Positions 48,001-54,000 of a stretch of 64,000 nucleotides of DNA are shown piece after piece. The position numbers are program-made. Location of the stretch: positions 124,001 to 188,000 of the forward strand of contig CAWKCK010000003.1 in assembly GCA_963848135.1 (NCBI GenBank). The letters run 5' to 3'. How positions within the stretch are numbered: position 1 is the stretch's first letter; each line of letters opens with the position of its first letter. The stretch comes from an uncultured delta proteobacterium. Its GTDB lineage: Bacteria > Desulfobacterota > Desulfobacteria > Desulfobacterales > SG8-13.

Positions 48001-51000
48001 AGTTTGAAATGGTTTCCTTCTGCGAATCCCTTAGCTGCTACCGGAAATCGATTCAGGGGCGCGTCGGTATAATCTCCGTCAGCGGCGGTCACGGTGTGTT
48101 GGTGACGGACATCTGCATCGCCAGGGGGCTGGCGGTCCCCCAACTTTCGAAAAGTGTTCAGCAACAAATCCGAGAATCGCTGTCGACCCGCATTCAGCCG
48201 ATCGCCTCATTGGAAAATCCGATCGATTTAACCGGGAGCGCAAAGGACGATGATTTTGTCGCTGCAGCGAATGTCCTCAGCCGGGCACCGGAGGTCGATA
48301 GCGTGATACTGTTATTGCTGCCCTATTCGCCGGGGATCAGCTCCGATCTTGGCGCGCGTTTGAGCTATGTGTTTGGCCGCGAGGGCAAACCCCTCGTGGC
48401 CTACGTGCCCCACCATGAAAAATACCGTATGTTGATCGAAGGCTTCGAGTTGAACAATGTCCCGGTATCTTCCTCCATCGATGGTGCGGTGCTGATGGTC
48501 GAGGCCATAAGGAGGTGCCGTCCATGTTGAACCAAGAAATGGAGAAAATCATCCACCAGGCACAAAAAACCGGTTGGATTATGGAGCCTGTAGCGAAACG
48601 CCTGCTTGCTCTGGCCGGAATACCGGTACCTGAATTTCGTTGGGTCGCCACCCTGCCGGAAGCCCTCAAAGCCGCTGAAGCTATCCGCTACCCACTCGTC
48701 GCCAAAGTCGTCTCACCGGACATCATTCACAAATCCGAAGTCCGCGGCGTGGTGGTCGGTATCAAGGATAGGGCTCAACTCACGAATACGTTCAGCGCGT
48801 TCAGCAAATTGAAAGGATTTTGCGGGATTCTGATCGAAGAACTGGTCCCGGGAATCGAGTTGATCGTTGGTGCGAAAATCGACTATCAGTTCGGCCCGGT
48901 AATATTAATGGGTATCGGCGGAACGGGTGTCGAAATTTACCAGGACACGGCCTTGCGCATGGCACCCCTGTCTGAAAAAGATGTCACCTCAATGATTGAC
49001 AGCCTGAAAGGCGATAAACTTTTGAAAGGATATCGGGCGGCCGAACCGGTCAACCTGAACGCATTAAAGCAGTTGATGGTTAATTTTTCAACTCTCGTCA
49101 TGGCGCTCGAAAATCGGTTCGATTCGATAGATTTGAATCCGGTGAAATGTACCGCCAATGGCAGTATCGTCGCCGATGCCCGCATCATGCTCAGCGGCTG
49201 ACAATCCGAAAAAAATACCCGGCCATTCAATGACCGGGTATGGCATCAAAATCAGATCGTCTTAATCGGTCCCCGCCCGTGCCATGTAGCGCTGCAGCAG
49301 TTTCTGATTGTCCTCCGCCGTAACGATACCGGGTAATTTTTCCAAGGCAAGATCGGCAGCGGTATCGATCATCTCTGCGCGCAAGGTGCTTTGAGCCTGA
49401 CGGAGCCGCCCCGCGATCTTTCGCTTGGCATTCGCCATGATAATTTTGCTCTCTTGATGGGCTTCGTTGATTATCTCCTGTTTACGTCGTTCTCCCATCT
49501 TAACGATCCGCTCTCTAACTTCATCCAATCGACCCGAATTATCTTCAAGATCCTTTTCAGCTTGCCGGACACGCTGGACCAGTTGGTTTTTCTCTTCTTC
49601 GAGATTCTGTATTTTAAGTGATATTTCTTTTCCTTTTCCGGATAGAAAGTTCTTCAACGGCAGGCGGGCGAACTTGACAATCACAAAGACCAGGATAGCA
49701 AAGTTGACCCAACGCATGACCAGATCGTAGGTAGGCCTCCAGCCTCCGCTGCTCTCGGCGGCAAAAACCTCTAACACTCCGGAGAAAAAAACGAGAAGAG
49801 TAATTGAGACAACAATCCCCGTCAGGTGACGACATCTCTTCTTGCACGTCATGATGTGAGCCTCCGCTCCAGCAGTTTTTCCATCATTCCAACGGCAAGC
49901 GATTGGGCTTCTTTTTGTACCGACTTTCTGGCTTCGGCAACGAGTGCCGTAACCTGCTGGCGGTCTTCTTGCGACAGTTTTTCCACTTCGCGCCGGACAG
50001 CGTTAACGATTCCGTCCGCTTCCTGCTTACCGGATCCTTCAATTTTCTCCCGGATTTCATGGGCCTCGCGAATGACTTCGGTTTCCTGCTTTTTTAACCG
50101 TTTCATCAAGCGCACTATCTTTTTCTCAGCCTCCGTGGCATCATCCTGGATATTTTGGATGTGGCCCTCCCTTTCCTGAACCACACTGCGCAGCGGCTGG
50201 ATCATGACCCGGTTGATGATGTACAGAAAAATCAGAAAAGATATCAATTGAATGATGAGGGTCTCATTGATACTGATCAATGCAATGTTGCTGATGATCT
50301 GCATAGCATCCGTCCAAAATATAATACGGCCCAGTTTACCCGCCGAGAACGATCACGCACCATGGCCAATGATGGTTTCATGACCGCCAGCGAAGAAATT
50401 AAACCCGTCAAAGGTGTCGCTATACGCCGAACCCGCCGCAGGGTCATCCCCAATGCGATCGAGTCACCCTTTTTTAATTCAGGCCCTTGCGTAGCGTATG
50501 GATATATTTAGTCCGTTTAAACGACAAACAGAAGCAGGAGCGCAATGACCAGAGAATAAATTCCCGTTGACTCCGAAACCGCCTGTCCCACCAGCATGGT
50601 ACGCGTCAGCAAACCGGCTTCCTGGGGATTTTTTCCGATGGCTTCACATGCTTTGGCAGCCACCATCCCTTCCCCGACACCGGGACCGATTGCTCCAAGC
50701 CCCATGGAAATTCCAGCACCGATGAATGCTGCTGCTTTTACGAGATCTGCACCTTCGATTGCCATTTTATGTACCTCCTGAAAGCGACAAAATTAGATTG
50801 ACCGTCTACTTTGAAATTATTGATTCAGCCGCCGCTGTCCCGGTCGCGAAATCGATGCTTCGCAGTGTCAAACAGAGCGGGGTTTTCAATTTTAAAGCAC
50901 AAAAATGAGAACCAGGCTTATCACCATGGCATAAATAGCGGTGGATTGAGACACAGCTTGCCCCACAAGCATGGTCCGCATTAAATCACCGGCCCGTGAC

Positions 51001-54000
51001 GTATTTCTGGCAACCCATTTTACGGCACCCTCGGCAGCCATCCCGTTACCGATACCGGGACCGATACCTCCCAGGCCAGTGCATAAACCGGCAGACAGCA
51101 ATGCCATGGACGCACTGAGCGCCTGGGATTCTGGAAAGGCCTTGAAAAGCAGGATGAAGCTAACCAAAAGGCCGAAAATAGATGGTGTCTGGGCCACGGC
51201 CTGACCCACCAGCATGGTGGTGGTGACATTGGCAACCGATTCCGGGTTTCGGGCGATTCCATCACAGCTGACACCTGCCGCCATGCCGCCACCGTAACCG
51301 GACCCGATTGCCGCCAGACCGGTACTCAGGCCCGCGCCAATCAAGGCCGCCCATGTCGGAAATAATGGTGAGCTACTGAAATCCATGAAGATCAACATCA
51401 ACGCCACCACCATGGAAAAGATTGCGGGCGTCTGGCACACGGCCGACCCGATCAGCATATTGGTGGTCAGACGGGAACCTATGGCCGGCTGGCGTGAAAT
51501 CCCCAGGCAACACTGGCCGCCCGGAAATCCTGATCCGATACCGGATCCTATGGCGCCAAAACCCATGCTGAGGCCGGATCCGAACAGGGCGGCCGCCTTC
51601 AGCGGTGTCGCACCGGGAGCATCGAGAAAAAGAAGCAAAATAGCAATCACCAGAGCGAAGATAGACGCGGATTCCGCCACTGCCTGGCCCACCAACATAT
51701 TTTTGAAAATATCACCGGAAATCTTCGGATTGCGGGATACTGCCAGGTTGGCCTGAGCGGCGGTGTACCCTTCACCAATAGCCGCACCGATGGCTCCGAG
51801 ACCCATCGCAATTCCACCGCCGACGAAGGCACTCAACTGTACGATTGTTTGTACGTCAAACTGCATATTCTACTTCACCTGTACGGAAATGTAGACCACA
51901 GTGAGCATGGTAAACACAAATGCCTGTATTGTTCCGACAAAAAGGCCGAAGAACCCGTTTAGGAAAGGGGGTAATATGATACTGTAGCTCAAATAAGATA
52001 CCACCAGGATGATGATGGAGCCGCCCATAATATTTCCAAAGAGCCGGAATGAAATCGAAATAATCTTTGCAAGCTCACCGATAAGATTAAGAGGCATCAT
52101 AAAGAAAATCGGTTGAAAGTATTCCTTGGCGTAGTTTTTGAACCCTTTGCTCTTGATGCCGGCATAGTGGGCAATTACGAAGCCCATAAGACCTAAACTC
52201 AGCGGGGTGTTCAGATCTTTGGTTGGTTCTTCGAGATGGGGAATGATTCCCAGCCAGTTGGAAAGCAAAAGAAACATGAAGAGCGCGCAGACCATCGGAC
52301 CGTACTTCCGGGCCTTTTCCCTGTCGAGGGCATCCTCGGTCAATTTGTAGAACTGCTCCACAAAAATTTCTCCCAAGACCTGAAGTGGTTGGGGGACGAT
52401 TTCTTTTTTTCGGGCAGCAGACATACCGAAAATAATGAGGAAAGTGATAACGATCCATGTCATAATGATCACATCCAGGTTCAGTGTGATCGTGTAGCCG
52501 AATACAGGTATGATCAGCTGATGGACAAGCCCAAGTTCACCCATGAAAGGTTTTCCCTCACGAAACTTTATTTGGAATGACGTGAATATATTTGCAGAAA
52601 TGCTCTGCAAGGATAACGAATTGCACCATGAAGATACCGGTGATCGTCGTCGCCAGATGAAACTGCTCAAATTTGACAGCGACAACCAGTGGAATCGCCA
52701 GAATGAGGTAGCGGATAAACATAGAGGACATAGAAAGCACAAATGTTTTTCTGCTCGACCGGCCGAACTTGAGCGGCAGCGTCTCACCCATAAGGACGAA
52801 ATTGATCACGCTGAACAGCGTCCCCAGAACGAGTCCTTTTCCTAAGGCTGTTTGTCCGGTGAAGATAATAACGAGGGCAATAATTACAGCCGTCGCCATG
52901 GCTCGGGAACCGTATTTTTTCTGTGTCGCCCTAATCGATTCCATTATCCCGCCCTTTTTCCTCCTTTTCCTTGACGTCCTTGTCTCGAACGATCTCCATG
53001 ATTTGCCGGTAGGCCACATTCCCACCGCCAATGATACCCAGGATGGTAAAGACAGCGATGAAGATCCCCCTGGTGCCTAACCACTGATCAAGTTTGTAGC
53101 CGATAAAAAAACAGAAGGCGATACAACCGACCATTGTCAATCCGAGTTGCATGACAATCGTCAGGTGTTCGGCCCATGAACGGTTTTTTTTGTAATTAAT
53201 GACCATTAAATCGCTCCGGCGGCGGAGCGGACCTTACCGCGGATTTACCGAAGCAAAGTTGATAACACACAAGAAAAAAAATGCAACCGTTAATTATGTT
53301 TATATTGCTAATTAAATAACAAATATTGTTCAGTTTTTATATTCAGTTCAAATTTCACGAAAACTAAATGACGCCCAAGGATCTCACGCTGCATGGATAG
53401 GTACCATCAGATGAGATCAAAAGAGTGTTGAAATTTCACTGCGTAGCCGCTACGATATTGAGTAGAATTTTCGGGTAAACCAATTTTCTTCACAGGAGAT
53501 GTAAAAATGGCAGTCATAACGATCTCCAGGCAGTTCGGGGCCGGTGGATTAACTCTGGGCAAAAGAATCGCCAAACGACTCGACTATTCATTTTTCGACA
53601 GCGAGATCATCCAGATGGTCGCTCAGCAGGCGAAAGTATCAACCCGTTGGGTGGAATCCATGGAAAAGGAAGCCGGAGGGAAACTGGAACGTCTAATTTC
53701 AGGCCTGGTTTCGAAAAGTTTCATTGATCGCTTACTGGACGACCGCCGGGGCTATATTGATGAAGAAATTTATGTCGACCTGCTTGGCAAGATCATCAAA
53801 AAGATTGCCGAAGATGGCAACGCAGTCATTCTCGGCCGGGGTAGTCAGTATATCCTCAAAGATTATGATCGTGTTTTTCACACCCTTCTGGTTGCCGACA
53901 AGGAATACCGCATAAAGTTCATAGAGGAAAAATACGATCTGTTCACCAAACACGCAATCCAGACCGTCAACAATGAAGACAAACGCAGGATTAACCTATA

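What a model noticed while it worked through the whole genome (the two positions that open the first line are those of the whole stretch)
49262..53206. Second FO operon with a four-hairpin F-type c subunit bearing a single ion-binding carboxylate
The genome has the ordinary FO genes (atpI-a-c, C17:194890-196606) and a single F1 operon (C18:187094-193285). It also has a second, FO-only operon, atpZ-atpI-a-c(x4)-c-b'-b (g01016-g01010). Its first c gene, g01013 (C3:174892-175866, 324 aa), is four F-type c hairpins fused in one chain (8 TM helices). Only hairpin 1 keeps the ion-binding Glu (AVAESAS, Na+-type signature); hairpins 2-4 have Gln there (CQTP, AQTP, SQST). A normal one-hairpin Na+-type c (g01012) follows. 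This predicts a hybrid or low-stoichiometry rotor with one ion per four hairpins, and an alternative membrane motor for the same F1. It extends the F/V-hybrid ring known from Acetobacterium woodii, which has two hairpins and [...]
Evidence so far: - pfam.tsv: four full-length ATP-synt_C matches (16-78, 95-158, 176-239, 257-320; E 1e-14 to 1e-15). - List of all ATP synthase genes. - The best Swiss-Prot hits are Na+ c subunits (Natranaerobius, Ilyobacter tartaricus). - search_genomes in the order: a single 324-406-aa open frame matching residues 1-324 in 33 of 61 Desulfobacterales genomes, this one included. 36 of 61 have any match at E<=1e-30. There are also 404-aa frames in two pieces and a 163-aa form. 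- Alignment of 10 orthologs: Glu only in hairpin 1, Gln invariant in hairpins 2-4, and every locus has a one-hairpin c ORF next to it. - In 30 other Desulfobacterota genomes only 1 had a multi-hairpin match, a 239-aa frame covering res [...]
(Added by a program. Inside this text positions count along the whole contig: contig position 124,001 is position 1 of the stretch shown here. "Call 12" and the like, gene names such as g00115 and contig names such as C1 are that model's own, and its searches are not shown. The text may have been shortened before it was handed on; [...] marks where a part breaks off. The agent that wrote the report below was given it as the finding of a first reader that could run no searches.)

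Follow-up and report, generated by a model that had tools for sequence, protein, structure and literature searches.

The report
Spare sodium motor with fused rotor
A sulfate-reducing bacterium has a second set of membrane-motor genes for its single ATP synthase head, including a rotor protein made of four fused units of which only one can carry an ion, which should lower the number of ions spent per ATP.

Summary
Window 49262-53206 (minus strand) holds atpZ-atpI-a-c4-c-b'-b, with no F1 genes. The genome has one F1 operon and a second, H+-looking a-c pair elsewhere. The 324-aa c4 is four F-type c hairpins; only hairpin 1 has the helix-2 Glu.

New here:
- Relatives have 2 to 6 hairpins, and the extra ones are copies of the Gln-type hairpin 2.
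- A sizeable sub-family (EQQE) keeps a second Glu in the last hairpin, so "Gln invariant" holds only for close relatives.
- The Na+ site is split. Glu32/Glu65 come from one hairpin and Ser66/Thr67/Tyr70 from the hairpin before it. This explains why hairpin 4 keeps QSTxxY.
- c4 starts within 4 nt of the a stop and has no GGAG, whereas the single c always has a strong Shine-Dalgarno. This fits few c4 and many c per ring, as in Acetobacterium woodii.
- In five distant relatives the same gene pair lies inside complete F1FO operons.
- The best solved match is A. woodii c1.

Best reading: a Na+-coupled alternative FO with a hybrid ring and a lowered Na+/ATP ratio, sharing the only F1. Ring composition, coupling ion and direction are untested. 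I found no paper describing it.

The parts
53293..53322 (-). promoter-like site (TTGTTA-18-CATAAT) upstream of atpZ; tentative
   Evidence: The number of such sites in the region (4) is not above the shuffles (mean 5.7), so this is a position only, not evidence.
52931..53206 (-). atpZ-like small membrane protein, 91 aa
   Evidence: PF09527, 56.2 bits. It is the first gene of the operon in relatives.
52558..52944 (-). atpI, 128 aa from the internal ATG (the mechanical ORF runs to 53031)
   Evidence: PF03899, 37.3 bits. Relatives are 126-138 aa.
51870..52544 (-). FO subunit a, 224 aa from the internal ATG (the mechanical ORF runs to 52787); it carries the SFRLFGNIMG arginine motif
   Evidence: PF00119, 177 bits. 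It is 37% identical to the housekeeping a, with the same Arg motif. Relatives are 224 aa and 66-83% identical.
50892..51866 (-). c4: four fused F-type c hairpins, 324 aa, with one Glu32/Glu65 pair (hairpin 1)
   Evidence: Four PF00137 stretches; hairpin alignment; AF2 pLDDT 95.3; best solved match 4bem_J.
51621..51866 (-). c4 hairpin 1 (residues 1-82): GEG ... AVAESASIF; supplies Glu32 and Glu65
   Evidence: It groups with the single c in the hairpin tree.
51378..51620 (-). c4 hairpin 2 (residues 83-163): GSG ... AVCQTPAIF; no carboxylate. This is the type that is multiplied in the 5- and 6-hairpin forms.
51135..51377 (-). c4 hairpin 3 (residues 164-244): GGG ... AVAQTPSIF; no carboxylate
50892..51134 (-). 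c4 hairpin 4 (residues 245-324): GNG ... AVSQSTAIY; no carboxylate, but it keeps Ser66/Thr67/Tyr70
   Evidence: The motif tracks a Glu in the following hairpin.
50517..50765 (-). single-hairpin c, 82 aa, with Glu32, Val63, Glu65, Ser66, Thr67 and Tyr70; own AGGAGG Shine-Dalgarno
   Evidence: PF00137, 66.6 bits. Motif. Best solved relatives are Na+ rings. It is 76-98% identical in relatives.
49849..50304 (-). FO subunit b', 151 aa
   Evidence: PF00430, 61.9 bits.
49262..49852 (-). FO subunit b, 196 aa; overlaps the b' stop by 4 nt
   Evidence: PF00430, 53.5 bits. It is 24% identical to the b of the F1 operon over its full length.
49215..49241 (-). terminator-like hairpin (12-bp stem, T run) 21 nt after the b stop

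Best explanation
The operon encodes a complete alternative FO sector (a, rotor, b/b' stalk, plus AtpZ and AtpI). I propose it assembles with the cell's only F1.

Rotor (inferred): a hybrid ring of many copies of the single-hairpin, Na+-binding c and few copies (probably one) of c4.

Ion sites (inferred): each Na+ site is built across two neighbouring hairpins. Glu32 and Glu65 come from one hairpin, and Val63 O, Ser66, Thr67 and Tyr70 come from the hairpin that precedes it in the chain or ring. In c4 only the junction leading into hairpin 1 is a complete site. The junctions 1-2, 2-3 and 3-4 have Gln65 and cannot carry a charge-compensated ion.

Consequence (my arithmetic): a ring with n single c and m c4 carries n+m ions per turn on n+4m hairpins, so the Na+/ATP ratio is lower than for an all-c ring of the same size. 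For 11 hairpins, an assumed size, 7 c + 1 c4 gives 8/3 = 2.7 instead of 3.7. The five- and six-hairpin relatives would give 2.3 and 2.0.

Role: the cell would then own two motors for one head, an H+-looking a-c pair and this higher-gear Na+ one. The Na+ motor would be usable where the sodium-motive force is large (seawater; Rnf and Na+ decarboxylases are present) or, run in reverse, to pump Na+ against a steep gradient.

Shown: genes, domains, residues, conservation, gene order, distribution. Inferred: ring make-up, Na+ coupling, F1 pairing, direction.
For: (1) A complete FO gene set with no F1 gene lies between a promoter-side gap and a terminator-like hairpin. The genome has one gamma and one alpha/beta pair, two a genes and four b-type genes.

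(2) Subunit a keeps the essential Arg motif.

(3) The single c has all six residues of the Fusobacterium nucleatum two-carboxylate Na+ site at the same numbers (site description read in PMC3692424). Its best solved relatives are A. woodii c2, I. tartaricus ('sodium ion specific') and F. nucleatum. The housekeeping c best matches Spirulina and chloroplast rings; that those rings are H+-coupled is recalled.

(4) Split site. In 305 multi-hairpin proteins, the [ST][STQ]xxY motif in hairpin i goes with Glu/Asp65 in hairpin i+1: 279 with a carboxylate against 15 without when the motif is present, 181 against 776 when it is absent. It goes inversely with hairpin i-1. Among site-less hairpins, 68 of 77 with the motif precede a carboxylate hairpin, against 70 of 241 without it (kin are not independent). 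In EQQE forms the motif moves to hairpin 3 as well.

(5) A. woodii c1, the top Foldseek hit (36% identity, rmsd 1.4, TM 0.84 on its own length), has the same layout: AETSGIF in hairpin 1 and AQTTGIY in hairpin 2. It sits once among nine single c in a working Na+ synthase (PMC9171764, passages).

(6) Stoichiometry hint. The c4 ATG lies 0-4 nt from, or overlaps by 4 nt, the a stop in 40 of 46 rows (first start codon in the ORF) and in 97 of 106 distinct loci (start nearest the stop, which favours small gaps). GGAG/GAGG within 20 nt upstream occurs in 0 of 106 for c4 and in 104 of 106 for the single c.

(7) Selection. The operon order is kept in 11 of 16 and 58 of 80 loci (most of the others are cut by contig ends). 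All four hairpins are 85-89% identical on average among 52 four-hairpin proteins. The single c is 76-98% identical.

(8) F1 pairing. In 5 of 80 loci (L134, L136, L142, L143, L144) the multi-hairpin c plus single c lie in operons continuing with b'-b-delta-alpha-gamma-beta (one shown through epsilon). In two of these genomes that operon holds the only gamma, while a second Z-I-a-c locus stands alone. In Desulfobacterales carriers the number of a genes exceeds gamma genes by one in 4 of 4 evaluable genomes.

(9) A fold of b(40-196)+b'+delta gave weak support: score 0.53, best of 3 controls 0.00. The mark was reached by 51 of 78 solved complexes and 2 of 108 mismatched pairs. However, scores of 0.60 or under came from only 5 of those 78 solved complexes and from all 4 mismatches that passed (of 180). 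The runs agree in at least 94% of contacts and the partner pLDDT is at least 78. b-delta complexes are solved, so the pass may reflect likeness only.

(10) Na+ pumps are present: one RnfD and two OAD_beta genes.
Against: - There are no protein, ring or transport data for any member.
- Three consecutive site-less hairpins make a sector of about 100 degrees without ion uptake. A. woodii tolerates one such hairpin. Whether ion-driven synthesis can cross three is unknown, and a pump-only role is possible.
- c4 does have an SD-like AGGT(G/T/A)A inside the last codons of a in 91 of 106 loci, so low translation is not shown.
- Translation signals do not prove ring stoichiometry.
- Hairpin 1 has Ala67 and Phe70, so my site model needs the neighbour's ligands. 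The direction of the neighbour is inferred from covariation, not from coordinates.
- Two Desulfobacterales loci have c4 displaced (before atpZ in L043, after b in L049).
- Expression is not shown. An RNA-library run holds 13 contig pieces at 88-98% likeness, which may be a relative or DNA carry-over.
- No Na+ riboswitch or other Rfam element is present.
- The complex prediction is only weak.
- OAD_beta is present in 111 of 121 genomes of the order, so it does not track the operon.
Confidence: 0.6

Rival explanations
1. The ring is made of c4 alone (for example three copies, giving 12 hairpins and 3 sites, about 1 Na+ per ATP). The complex would be a dedicated ATP-driven Na+ export pump that cannot synthesise ATP. 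The single c would be a minor or separate component.
For: c4 hairpin 4 carries the ligands needed to complete the site with hairpin 1 of another c4, so a c4-c4 contact is chemically plausible. Forms with 4, 5 and 6 hairpins exist. V-type pumps use multi-hairpin subunits (fold matches).
Against: The single c is the most conserved gene of the operon (76-98% identity). It has the strong Shine-Dalgarno (104 of 106) and is present next to c4 in nearly all loci. Rings built from 4-, 5- and 6-hairpin units alone would differ in size between close relatives that have nearly identical a and c. The solved precedent, A. woodii, is a mixed ring.
Confidence: 0.12
2. The hybrid FO is coupled to H+, not Na+. 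The polar residues only tune the pKa, and the module is a second proton motor with a different gear.
For: Ion choice cannot be read with certainty from motifs. Hairpin 1 lacks Thr67 and Tyr70. A recent preprint treats incomplete motifs as 'H+/Na+' (10.64898/2026.10.01.756066, passages).
Against: The single c has the complete E32/V63/E65/S66/T67/Y70 set found in the crystallised Na+ ring. Its nearest solved relatives are all Na+ rings. The site-less hairpin that precedes a Glu hairpin keeps exactly the Na+ ligands, which a proton site would not need.
Confidence: 0.1
3. The orphan FO works without F1, as a Na+ conductance or as a rotor serving some other partner.
For: No F1 gene lies in the operon or within 17 kb in 16 of 16 contexts, and none in 75 of 80 loci. 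The support for b/b'-delta binding is only weak.
Against: The only known role of b and b' is to hold F1, and they are kept in the operon. The same c pair is inside complete F1FO operons in 5 loci. No other conserved partner gene was seen, except a cytidylate-kinase-like neighbour in 21 of 80 loci.
Confidence: 0.05
4. The operon is a decaying duplicate or a transferred relic without function.
For: One paper treated the ectopic FO of Desulfococcus oleovorans as a possible horizontal transfer or species-specific duplication (PMC4154653, passages).
Against: Intact frames occur in 67 of 121 genomes of the order and in 37 of 387 other genomes of the phylum sample. Every hairpin is highly conserved. 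Residue patterns are ordered. No stops occur in the listed full-length matches.
Confidence: 0.02

Closest known systems
Acetobacterium woodii Na+ F1FO ATP synthase with F/V-hybrid c ring (c1 plus c2/c3; PDB 4BEM)
   Same: Both have a multi-hairpin c with fewer carboxylates than hairpins, with Glu in the first hairpin and Gln plus [ST][ST]xxY in the last. Both have single-hairpin Na+-type c genes beside it. A. woodii c1 is the best structural and sequence match of c4. Its ring has nine single c and one c1 (PMC9171764). The gene order a - multi-hairpin c - single c is recalled for A. woodii.
   Different: Here there are four hairpins (2 to 6 in relatives) instead of two, so 3-5 dead junctions in a row instead of one. 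Position 32 is Glu, not Gln. In Desulfobacterales the operon has no F1 genes and co-exists with a second a-c pair.
V/A-type multi-hairpin proteolipids (Enterococcus hirae NtpK, Pyrococcus, Methanocaldococcus jannaschii with three hairpins, Methanopyrus kandleri with 13)
   Same: Both arise by gene fusion of c hairpins, with or without loss of sites. This is a known means to change the ion/ATP ratio (PMC9171764, '1, 2, 3, or even 13 hairpins'; preprint). The folds match at TM 0.8 on the length of the two-hairpin chains.
   Different: The hairpins here are F-type by sequence: the V-type K models of NCBIfam all score below their cut-offs. The partner subunits are F-type a, b and b'. V-type double hairpins carry the Glu in the second hairpin (rule quoted), whereas here it is in the first. 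No four-, five- or six-hairpin form with one site is named in the papers I read.
Na+ c11 rings of Ilyobacter tartaricus and Fusobacterium nucleatum
   Same: The single c of the operon shares Val63, Glu65, Ser66, Thr67 and Tyr70 with both, and Glu32 with F. nucleatum.
   Different: Those rings are homomeric, with one site per hairpin.
Ectopic second FO gene set of Desulfococcus oleovorans (Koumandou and Kossida 2014, PMC4154653)
   Same: That paper records 'double 0A-0C-0B'-0B' outside the main locus in a member of the same order, with a and c grouping away from the housekeeping copies.
   Different: It is described for one species as a duplication or transfer. No multi-hairpin c, no site loss and no functional reading appear in the passages I read, nor in the Table S1 row I saw, which lists only the main-locus proteins.
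N-ATPase (alternate Na+ F1FO operon atpDCQRBEFAG)
   Same: It is an extra F-type module beside the housekeeping enzyme, and its c has two carboxylates.
   Different: The N-ATPase has its own F1 genes and atpQ/atpR. Here the a, b and single-c scores against the alt-F1FO models are far below their cut-offs (129.9 against 302.1; 33.8 against 224.7; 65.2 against 130.85), and no F1 gene is present.

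Membership tests
F-type ATP synthase subunit c (PF00137) | Helical hairpin with a polar loop, matching the family profile | tested here: met
   Four stretches, 197.3 bits against a cut-off of 24. The AF2 model shows four hairpins with loops at RNP/RQP.
F-type ATP synthase subunit c (PF00137) | Ion-carrying carboxylate in the middle of helix 2 of every hairpin | tested here: not met
   Glu only in hairpin 1; Gln in hairpins 2-4.
A. woodii-type hybrid rotor | Multi-hairpin c with fewer sites than hairpins, encoded beside single-hairpin Na+-type c | tested here: met
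   The pair is adjacent in nearly all loci.
A. woodii-type hybrid rotor | Both proteins in one ring, with the multi-hairpin one in the minority | not testable with these tools
   Indirect evidence only: tight coupling of c4 to a, and a strong Shine-Dalgarno on the single c.
A. woodii-type hybrid rotor | Encoded within a complete F1FO operon | tested here: not met
   No F1 genes in the window operon. Met in 5 of 80 related loci.
Two-carboxylate Na+-binding c (F. nucleatum type) | Glu32, Val63, Glu65, Ser66, Thr67, Tyr70 | tested here: met
   The single c has all six. For c4 the set is complete only across the junction of hairpin 4 (or the single c) with hairpin 1.
Two-carboxylate Na+-binding c (F. 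nucleatum type) | Na+ binding or transport shown | not testable with these tools
   Needs biochemistry.
N-ATPase | Own F1 genes without delta, atpQ/atpR, and scores over the alt-F1FO cut-offs | tested here: not met
   a, b and the single c are all below their cut-offs. c4 exceeds TIGR03322 (149.3 against 130.85) only by summing four hairpins. No F1 genes.
V/A-type subunit K/c | Score over the V-type K model cut-offs | tested here: not met
   The best is 96.9 bits against a cut-off of 188.

The most novel reading that the evidence does not exclude
One F1 head serves two exchangeable membrane motors: an H+ one and a Na+ one. The gear of the Na+ motor is set genetically by how many ion-less hairpins (1 to 5) are fused into one rotor protein. 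This would give the lowest ion/ATP ratios of any F-type enzyme and a rotor that must cross a sector of 100 degrees or more without taking up an ion. Lineages would then tune the gear by duplicating hairpin 2, or by restoring Glu in the last hairpin (EQQQ, EQQE, EQQQQ, EQQQQQ).
Probability: 0.35. Interest if true: 0.9.

Novelty: new variant of a known kind. Interest (0 to 1): 0.78.

Why it matters
The ion/ATP ratio sets how much ATP a cell gets from a gradient, and what gradient it needs. In F-type enzymes the ratio is thought to vary almost only through ring size. The single known exception is the A. woodii ring, with one dead hairpin.

Here a large natural series has 2 to 6 fused hairpins with one or two sites. 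One search found 2405 proteins at E<=1e-10 among the 8000 candidates scored. The series is common in marine sulfate reducers, which live near the thermodynamic limit.

It offers three things:
- a graded set of natural rotors to test how a rotary motor copes with ion-less sectors;
- a case of two FO sectors competing for one F1;
- a sequence rule, for reading ion sites in multi-hairpin c subunits: the [ST][STQ]xxY motif in a hairpin goes with a carboxylate in the hairpin that follows it.

Cultured carriers exist, for example Desulfosarcina widdelii and Desulfacinum infernum DSM 9756.

Tried and rejected
- Rfam scan of 48500-55500 at E<=1: only two chance-level matches and no riboswitch.
- Promoter scan: sites are not above the shuffles.
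- Association with Na+ decarboxylases: OAD_beta is in 111 of 121 genomes of the order, so there is no contrast to test. NqrA was not found in the own genome.
- Expression: the one RNA-library run (X20) holds only contig pieces at 88-98% likeness, and the tool notes that DNA can be present in such a library. I treat this as a weak hint.
- N-ATPase and V-type membership were rejected on model cut-offs.
- The pseudogene reading was rejected on conservation.
- The A. woodii structure paper is not in the library, so I used the PDB chain alignment and the statement in PMC9171764.
- Literature searches for a description of such a subunit found none. Subscription journals are not covered, so this is 'not found in these searches'.
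- The Table S1 row of PMC4154653 shows only main-locus proteins. Its alignment file (Dataset S1) was not read through.
- The 3-hairpin 'QQE' signatures are probably truncated ORF calls of my script and were not used.
- A ring-level fold (c4 with copies of c) was not run, because the single complex job went to the b/b'-delta question.

Full report
WHAT IS THERE. On the minus strand of window 49262-53206 lie seven tightly packed ORFs. Pfam assigns them as follows:
- 52931-53206: PF09527, atpZ-like.
- ORF 52558-53031: PF03899, atpI. The likely start is the internal ATG at 52944, giving 128 aa.
- ORF 51870-52787: PF00119, subunit a. The likely start is at 52544, giving 224 aa, as in all relatives.
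- 50892-51866: PF00137 four times, 324 aa, here called c4.
- 50517-50765: PF00137 once, 82 aa, here called c.
- 49849-50304 and 49262-49852: PF00430, b' and b.
A 12-bp terminator-like hairpin follows b at 49241-49215. The promoter-like site at 53322-53293 is no better than chance. No Rfam element was found. NCBIfam models for N-ATPase and V-type subunits all stay below their cut-offs, except where the four hairpins of c4 add up.

THE GENOME HAS ONE F1 AND TWO FO SETS. Subunit c matches occur only in the window and at C17:194890-195171. Subunit a occurs only in the window and at C17:195270-195965. Gamma occurs once, on C18. Alpha and beta are on C18 only; the two other PF00006 matches are lone frames of 466 and 420 aa on C4 and C9 that I did not characterise further. 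b-type genes occur twice in the window and twice on C18. ORF reading gives b'-b-delta-alpha-gamma-beta-epsilon at C18:187094-193303, and Z-I-a-c at C17:194890-196606. The two a subunits are 37% identical and both carry SFRLFGNIMG, the essential arginine motif. The two b subunits are 24% identical over their full length.

THE FOUR-HAIRPIN PROTEIN. Cut into four, c4 aligns hairpin by hairpin with the single c (35-51% identity). At position 32 and positions 63-70 the sequences read:
- hairpin 1: E, VAESASIF
- hairpin 2: S, VCQTPAIF
- hairpin 3: G, VAQTPSIF
- hairpin 4: N, VSQSTAIY
- single c: E, VSESTGIY
AlphaFold2 with 30 sequences gives mean pLDDT 95.3 and pTM 0.91, with eight long helices broken only at the loops and at residue 65 and its equivalents. 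The best solved match is chain J of 4BEM, the two-hairpin c1 of A. woodii (36% identity, rmsd 1.4 A, TM 0.84 on its own length and 0.48 on the query). V-type proteolipids follow. No solved chain covers all four hairpins.

THE FAMILY. The word-indexed search found 2405 proteins at E<=1e-10 among the 8000 candidates scored. I classified the 120 best with a hairpin HMM:
- 55 four-hairpin EQQQ
- 49 five-hairpin EQQQQ
- 13 six-hairpin EQQQQQ
- one each of EQQQE and EQQQQE
- one N-terminally cut QQEQQQ
A hairpin tree gives four classes: first hairpins (sister to the single c), last hairpins, hairpin-3 type and hairpin-2 type. The extra hairpins of the longer forms all fall in the hairpin-2 type, in more than one place (19 proteins sampled at random from 114, FastTree, rooted on the housekeeping c). 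The site-less hairpins are not decaying: mean pairwise identity among 52 four-hairpin proteins is 0.855, 0.877, 0.890 and 0.864 for hairpins 1 to 4.

The exhaustive search of 1.84 billion representatives found 1651 hits at E<=0.001 and 98 at E<=1e-30. These include two- and three-hairpin forms (EQ, EQQ, EQE, EEE), a separate group of about 320 aa with the EQED/EQEE pattern at 28-32% identity, and all-Glu chains of 7 to 14 hairpins. One of the last is named from Asgard archaea.

Among 80 species-level genomic loci, the four-hairpin forms split into EQQQ 35, EQQE 22 and EQEE 5. The window's pattern is therefore one of several.

HOW THE SITE IS BUILT. In the F. nucleatum ring, Na+ is held by Glu32 and Glu65 of one subunit, by Ser66 and the Val63 carbonyl of the adjacent subunit, and by a water bound to Thr67. 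Tyr70 and Ser66 hydrogen-bond to Glu65 (PMC3692424, passages). The single c has all six residues at the same numbers.

In c4, hairpin 1 has the Glu pair but Ala67 and Phe70. Hairpin 4 has no carboxylate but keeps Ser66, Thr67 and Tyr70. I tested whether this is a rule. In 305 complete multi-hairpin proteins (pooled), a hairpin with [ST][STQ]xxY is followed by a hairpin with Glu/Asp65 in 279 of 294 cases. A hairpin without the motif is so followed in 181 of 957 cases. With the preceding hairpin the relation is inverse (40 of 294 against 420 of 957). On 158 distinct signatures the figures are 121 of 135 against 176 of 480. Among site-less hairpins, 68 of 77 with the motif precede a carboxylate hairpin, against 70 of 241 without it. 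The sequences are related, so these are descriptive counts, not probabilities.

The EQQE forms fit the rule: there hairpin 3 also reads QSTY or QTTY. A. woodii c1 has the same design, with AETSGIF in hairpin 1 and AQTTGIY in hairpin 2. I infer that c4 contributes exactly one complete site, at the junction between the preceding hairpin (hairpin 4 of another c4, or a single c) and its own hairpin 1. It then contributes three junctions with Gln65 that cannot carry a charge-compensated ion.

WHICH ION. The single c best matches A. woodii c2, the I. tartaricus 'sodium ion specific' c, and the F. nucleatum c. The housekeeping c (GQG ... LIESLCIY) best matches Spirulina and chloroplast rings among single hairpins; that those are H+ rings is recalled. 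The genome has one RnfD and two Na+-decarboxylase beta subunits, and no NqrA was found. The decarboxylase is nearly universal in the order (111 of 121) and so says nothing about which genomes carry the operon.

HYBRID RING OR c4 RING. In 40 of 46 rows (six places listed twice) the first start codon of c4 lies 0-4 nt after, or overlaps by 4 nt, the stop of a. In 106 distinct loci, with the start chosen nearest the stop, the figure is 97. None of the 106 has GGAG/GAGG in the 20 nt before c4, although 91 have AGGT inside the last codons of a. In contrast, 104 of 106 have GGAG/GAGG before the single c, which follows after 14-471 nt (median 60). Subunit a is present once per enzyme. This layout fits few c4 and many c, as in the A. 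woodii ring of nine single c and one c1 (PMC9171764). The single c is also the most conserved gene: 85-95% identity in 15 of the 16 loci, where L051 showed none. The corresponding ranges are 53-84% for c4, 66-83% for a and 34-45% for b. The evidence is indirect.

DOES IT USE THE ONE F1?
- None of 16 contexts of 17 kb holds an F1 gene.
- In 58 of 80 further loci the order Z-I-a-cN-c-b'-b stands alone. Most of the rest are cut by contig ends.
- In 5 of 80 loci (L134, L136, L142, L143, L144: three- and six-hairpin forms, 42-52% identical) the pair lies in an operon that continues with b'-b-delta-alpha-gamma-beta, through epsilon in the two I read out.
- In two of those genomes that operon holds the only gamma, while a second a gene lies elsewhere. 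In the one read through, G508, it is a Z-I-a-c locus of the housekeeping type that stands alone; the G509 stretch ends at its contig end just after a.
- In Desulfobacterales carriers, a genes exceed gamma genes by one in 4 of 4 evaluable genomes: 3/2, 3/2, 2/1 and 2/1. A fifth genome, 79% complete, showed no gamma.
- A fold of b(40-196), b' and the delta of C18 gave weak support: score 0.53, best of 3 controls 0.00. The mark was reached by 51 of 78 solved complexes and 2 of 108 mismatched pairs. Scores of 0.60 or under came from only 5 of those 78 and from all 4 mismatches that passed (of 180). The runs agree in at least 94% of contacts and the partner pLDDT is at least 78. Because b-delta complexes are solved, this shows likeness rather than binding.

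DISTRIBUTION.
- In a sample of the order, 67 of 121 genomes have a multi-hairpin match at E<=1e-50 (my count from its table).
- In a phylum sample, 42 of 401 genomes match at E<=1e-30, 37 of them among 387 genomes outside the order.
- Named records include Desulfosarcina, Desulfococcus, Desulfonema limicola, Desulfosalsimonadaceae, Desulfatiglandales and Desulfacinum infernum DSM 9756. Single MAGs are labelled Nitrospinaceae and Verrucomicrobiota. Desulfosarcina widdelii appears.
- The DNA is held by sediment and marine-sediment metagenome runs. One marine-sediment RNA library holds 13 pieces at 88-98% likeness over Z, I, a, c4 and c, which is a weak hint of expression of a relative.

CONSEQUENCES (my arithmetic, ring size assumed). 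A ring of n single c and m c4 carries n+m ions per turn. For 11 hairpins, the size of the solved Na+ rings:
- 7 c + 1 c4 gives 8/3 = 2.7 Na+ per ATP, against 3.7 for c11 and 3.3 for A. woodii.
- Five- and six-hairpin forms would give 2.3 and 2.0.
With the equation quoted in PMC9171764 and a phosphorylation potential of 50 kJ/mol, the minimal force rises from 141 mV (3.67 ions) to 194 mV (2.67) and 259 mV (2.0). Such a gear suits a large sodium-motive force, as in seawater. Run backwards, it suits pumping against a steep gradient. Whether ion-driven rotation can cross three dead hairpins under load is open. ATP-driven rotation should cross them easily, so a pump-biased enzyme is a serious possibility.

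WHAT IS KNOWN.
- PMC9171764 (passages) lists c subunits with 1, 2, 3 or 13 hairpins, and the A. woodii hybrid.
- A 2026 preprint on rotary ATPase evolution (10.64898/2026.10.01.756066, passages) says F-type rings are predominantly single hairpins. It cites A. woodii as the mixed case.
- PMC4154653 (passages; one row of Table S1) records a 'double 0A-0C-0B'-0B' in Desulfococcus oleovorans. It discusses transfer versus duplication and does not mention a fused c.
- Eight full-text searches found no description of a four- to six-hairpin F-type c. Subscription journals are outside the library.

VERDICT. It is a new variant of a known kind, the A. woodii-type hybrid rotor, with a testable site rule, a graded natural series and an unusual arrangement of two FO sets for one F1. 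Function remains inferred.

Noticed in passing
window 53507-54118 (+); 54686-54877 and 54267-54680 (-): A cytidylate-kinase-like gene (PF13189) lies divergent from the operon. A second copy appears split into two ORFs of 63 and 137 aa, possibly by a frameshift. A gene of this family lies next to the operon in 5 of 16 and 21 of 80 related loci. Its role is unknown.
   Followed up: partly
P0153 and P0271 (1139 and 1147 aa), P0185 (968 aa), P0244 (784 aa), P0229 (631 aa), P0188 (524 aa): These are very long c subunits of 7 to 14 hairpins, every hairpin with Glu. The 14-hairpin cluster carries names from Promethearchaeota and Hodarchaeota (Asgard archaea), so single-chain rings are not confined to Methanopyrus.
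   Followed up: partly
P0202, P0208-P0210, P0214-P0218 and many more (about 315-323 aa): A second, distinct four-hairpin c family, 28-32% identical to c4, has the pattern E-Q-E-D/E (three carboxylates in four hairpins) and many 50%-identity clusters. Its taxon and operon are unknown.
   Followed up: no
P0001 (434 aa, N-terminally cut, contig of 4768 bases): Its hairpin order is 2-3-(4/1 chimera)-2-3-4. It is either a fusion of two c4 units into a longer chain or an assembly artefact.
   Followed up: no
L147 (G508:C137) and L145 (G508:C244): The arrangement is reversed here. The six-hairpin c and the single c lie in the complete operon with the genome's only gamma, while a housekeeping-type Z-I-a-c locus stands alone without b genes.
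   Followed up: partly
window 50305-50516: There is a 212-nt gap between the single c and b', with no Rfam match. In a related metagenome contig (run X4) this stretch is replaced by 158 other letters while both flanks align.
   Followed up: no
L080; L043; L049: Operon variants: two tandem single-c genes (L080), c4 placed before atpZ (L043), and c4 placed after b (L049).
   Followed up: no
G049:C1:19891-23941 and G074:C3:1661400-1669830: Two carriers have a third a gene close to a second, divergent gamma. This is probably a further complete F-type (perhaps N-type) operon.
   Followed up: no
window 47136-49201 (+) and 55039-55920 (-): An ADP-forming acyl-CoA synthetase-like pair (CoA-binding, Succ_CoA_lig and ATP-grasp_5 domains) converges on the operon's end, and a tandem universal stress protein lies beyond the kinase-like genes. 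Both recur only in the closest relatives.
   Followed up: partly
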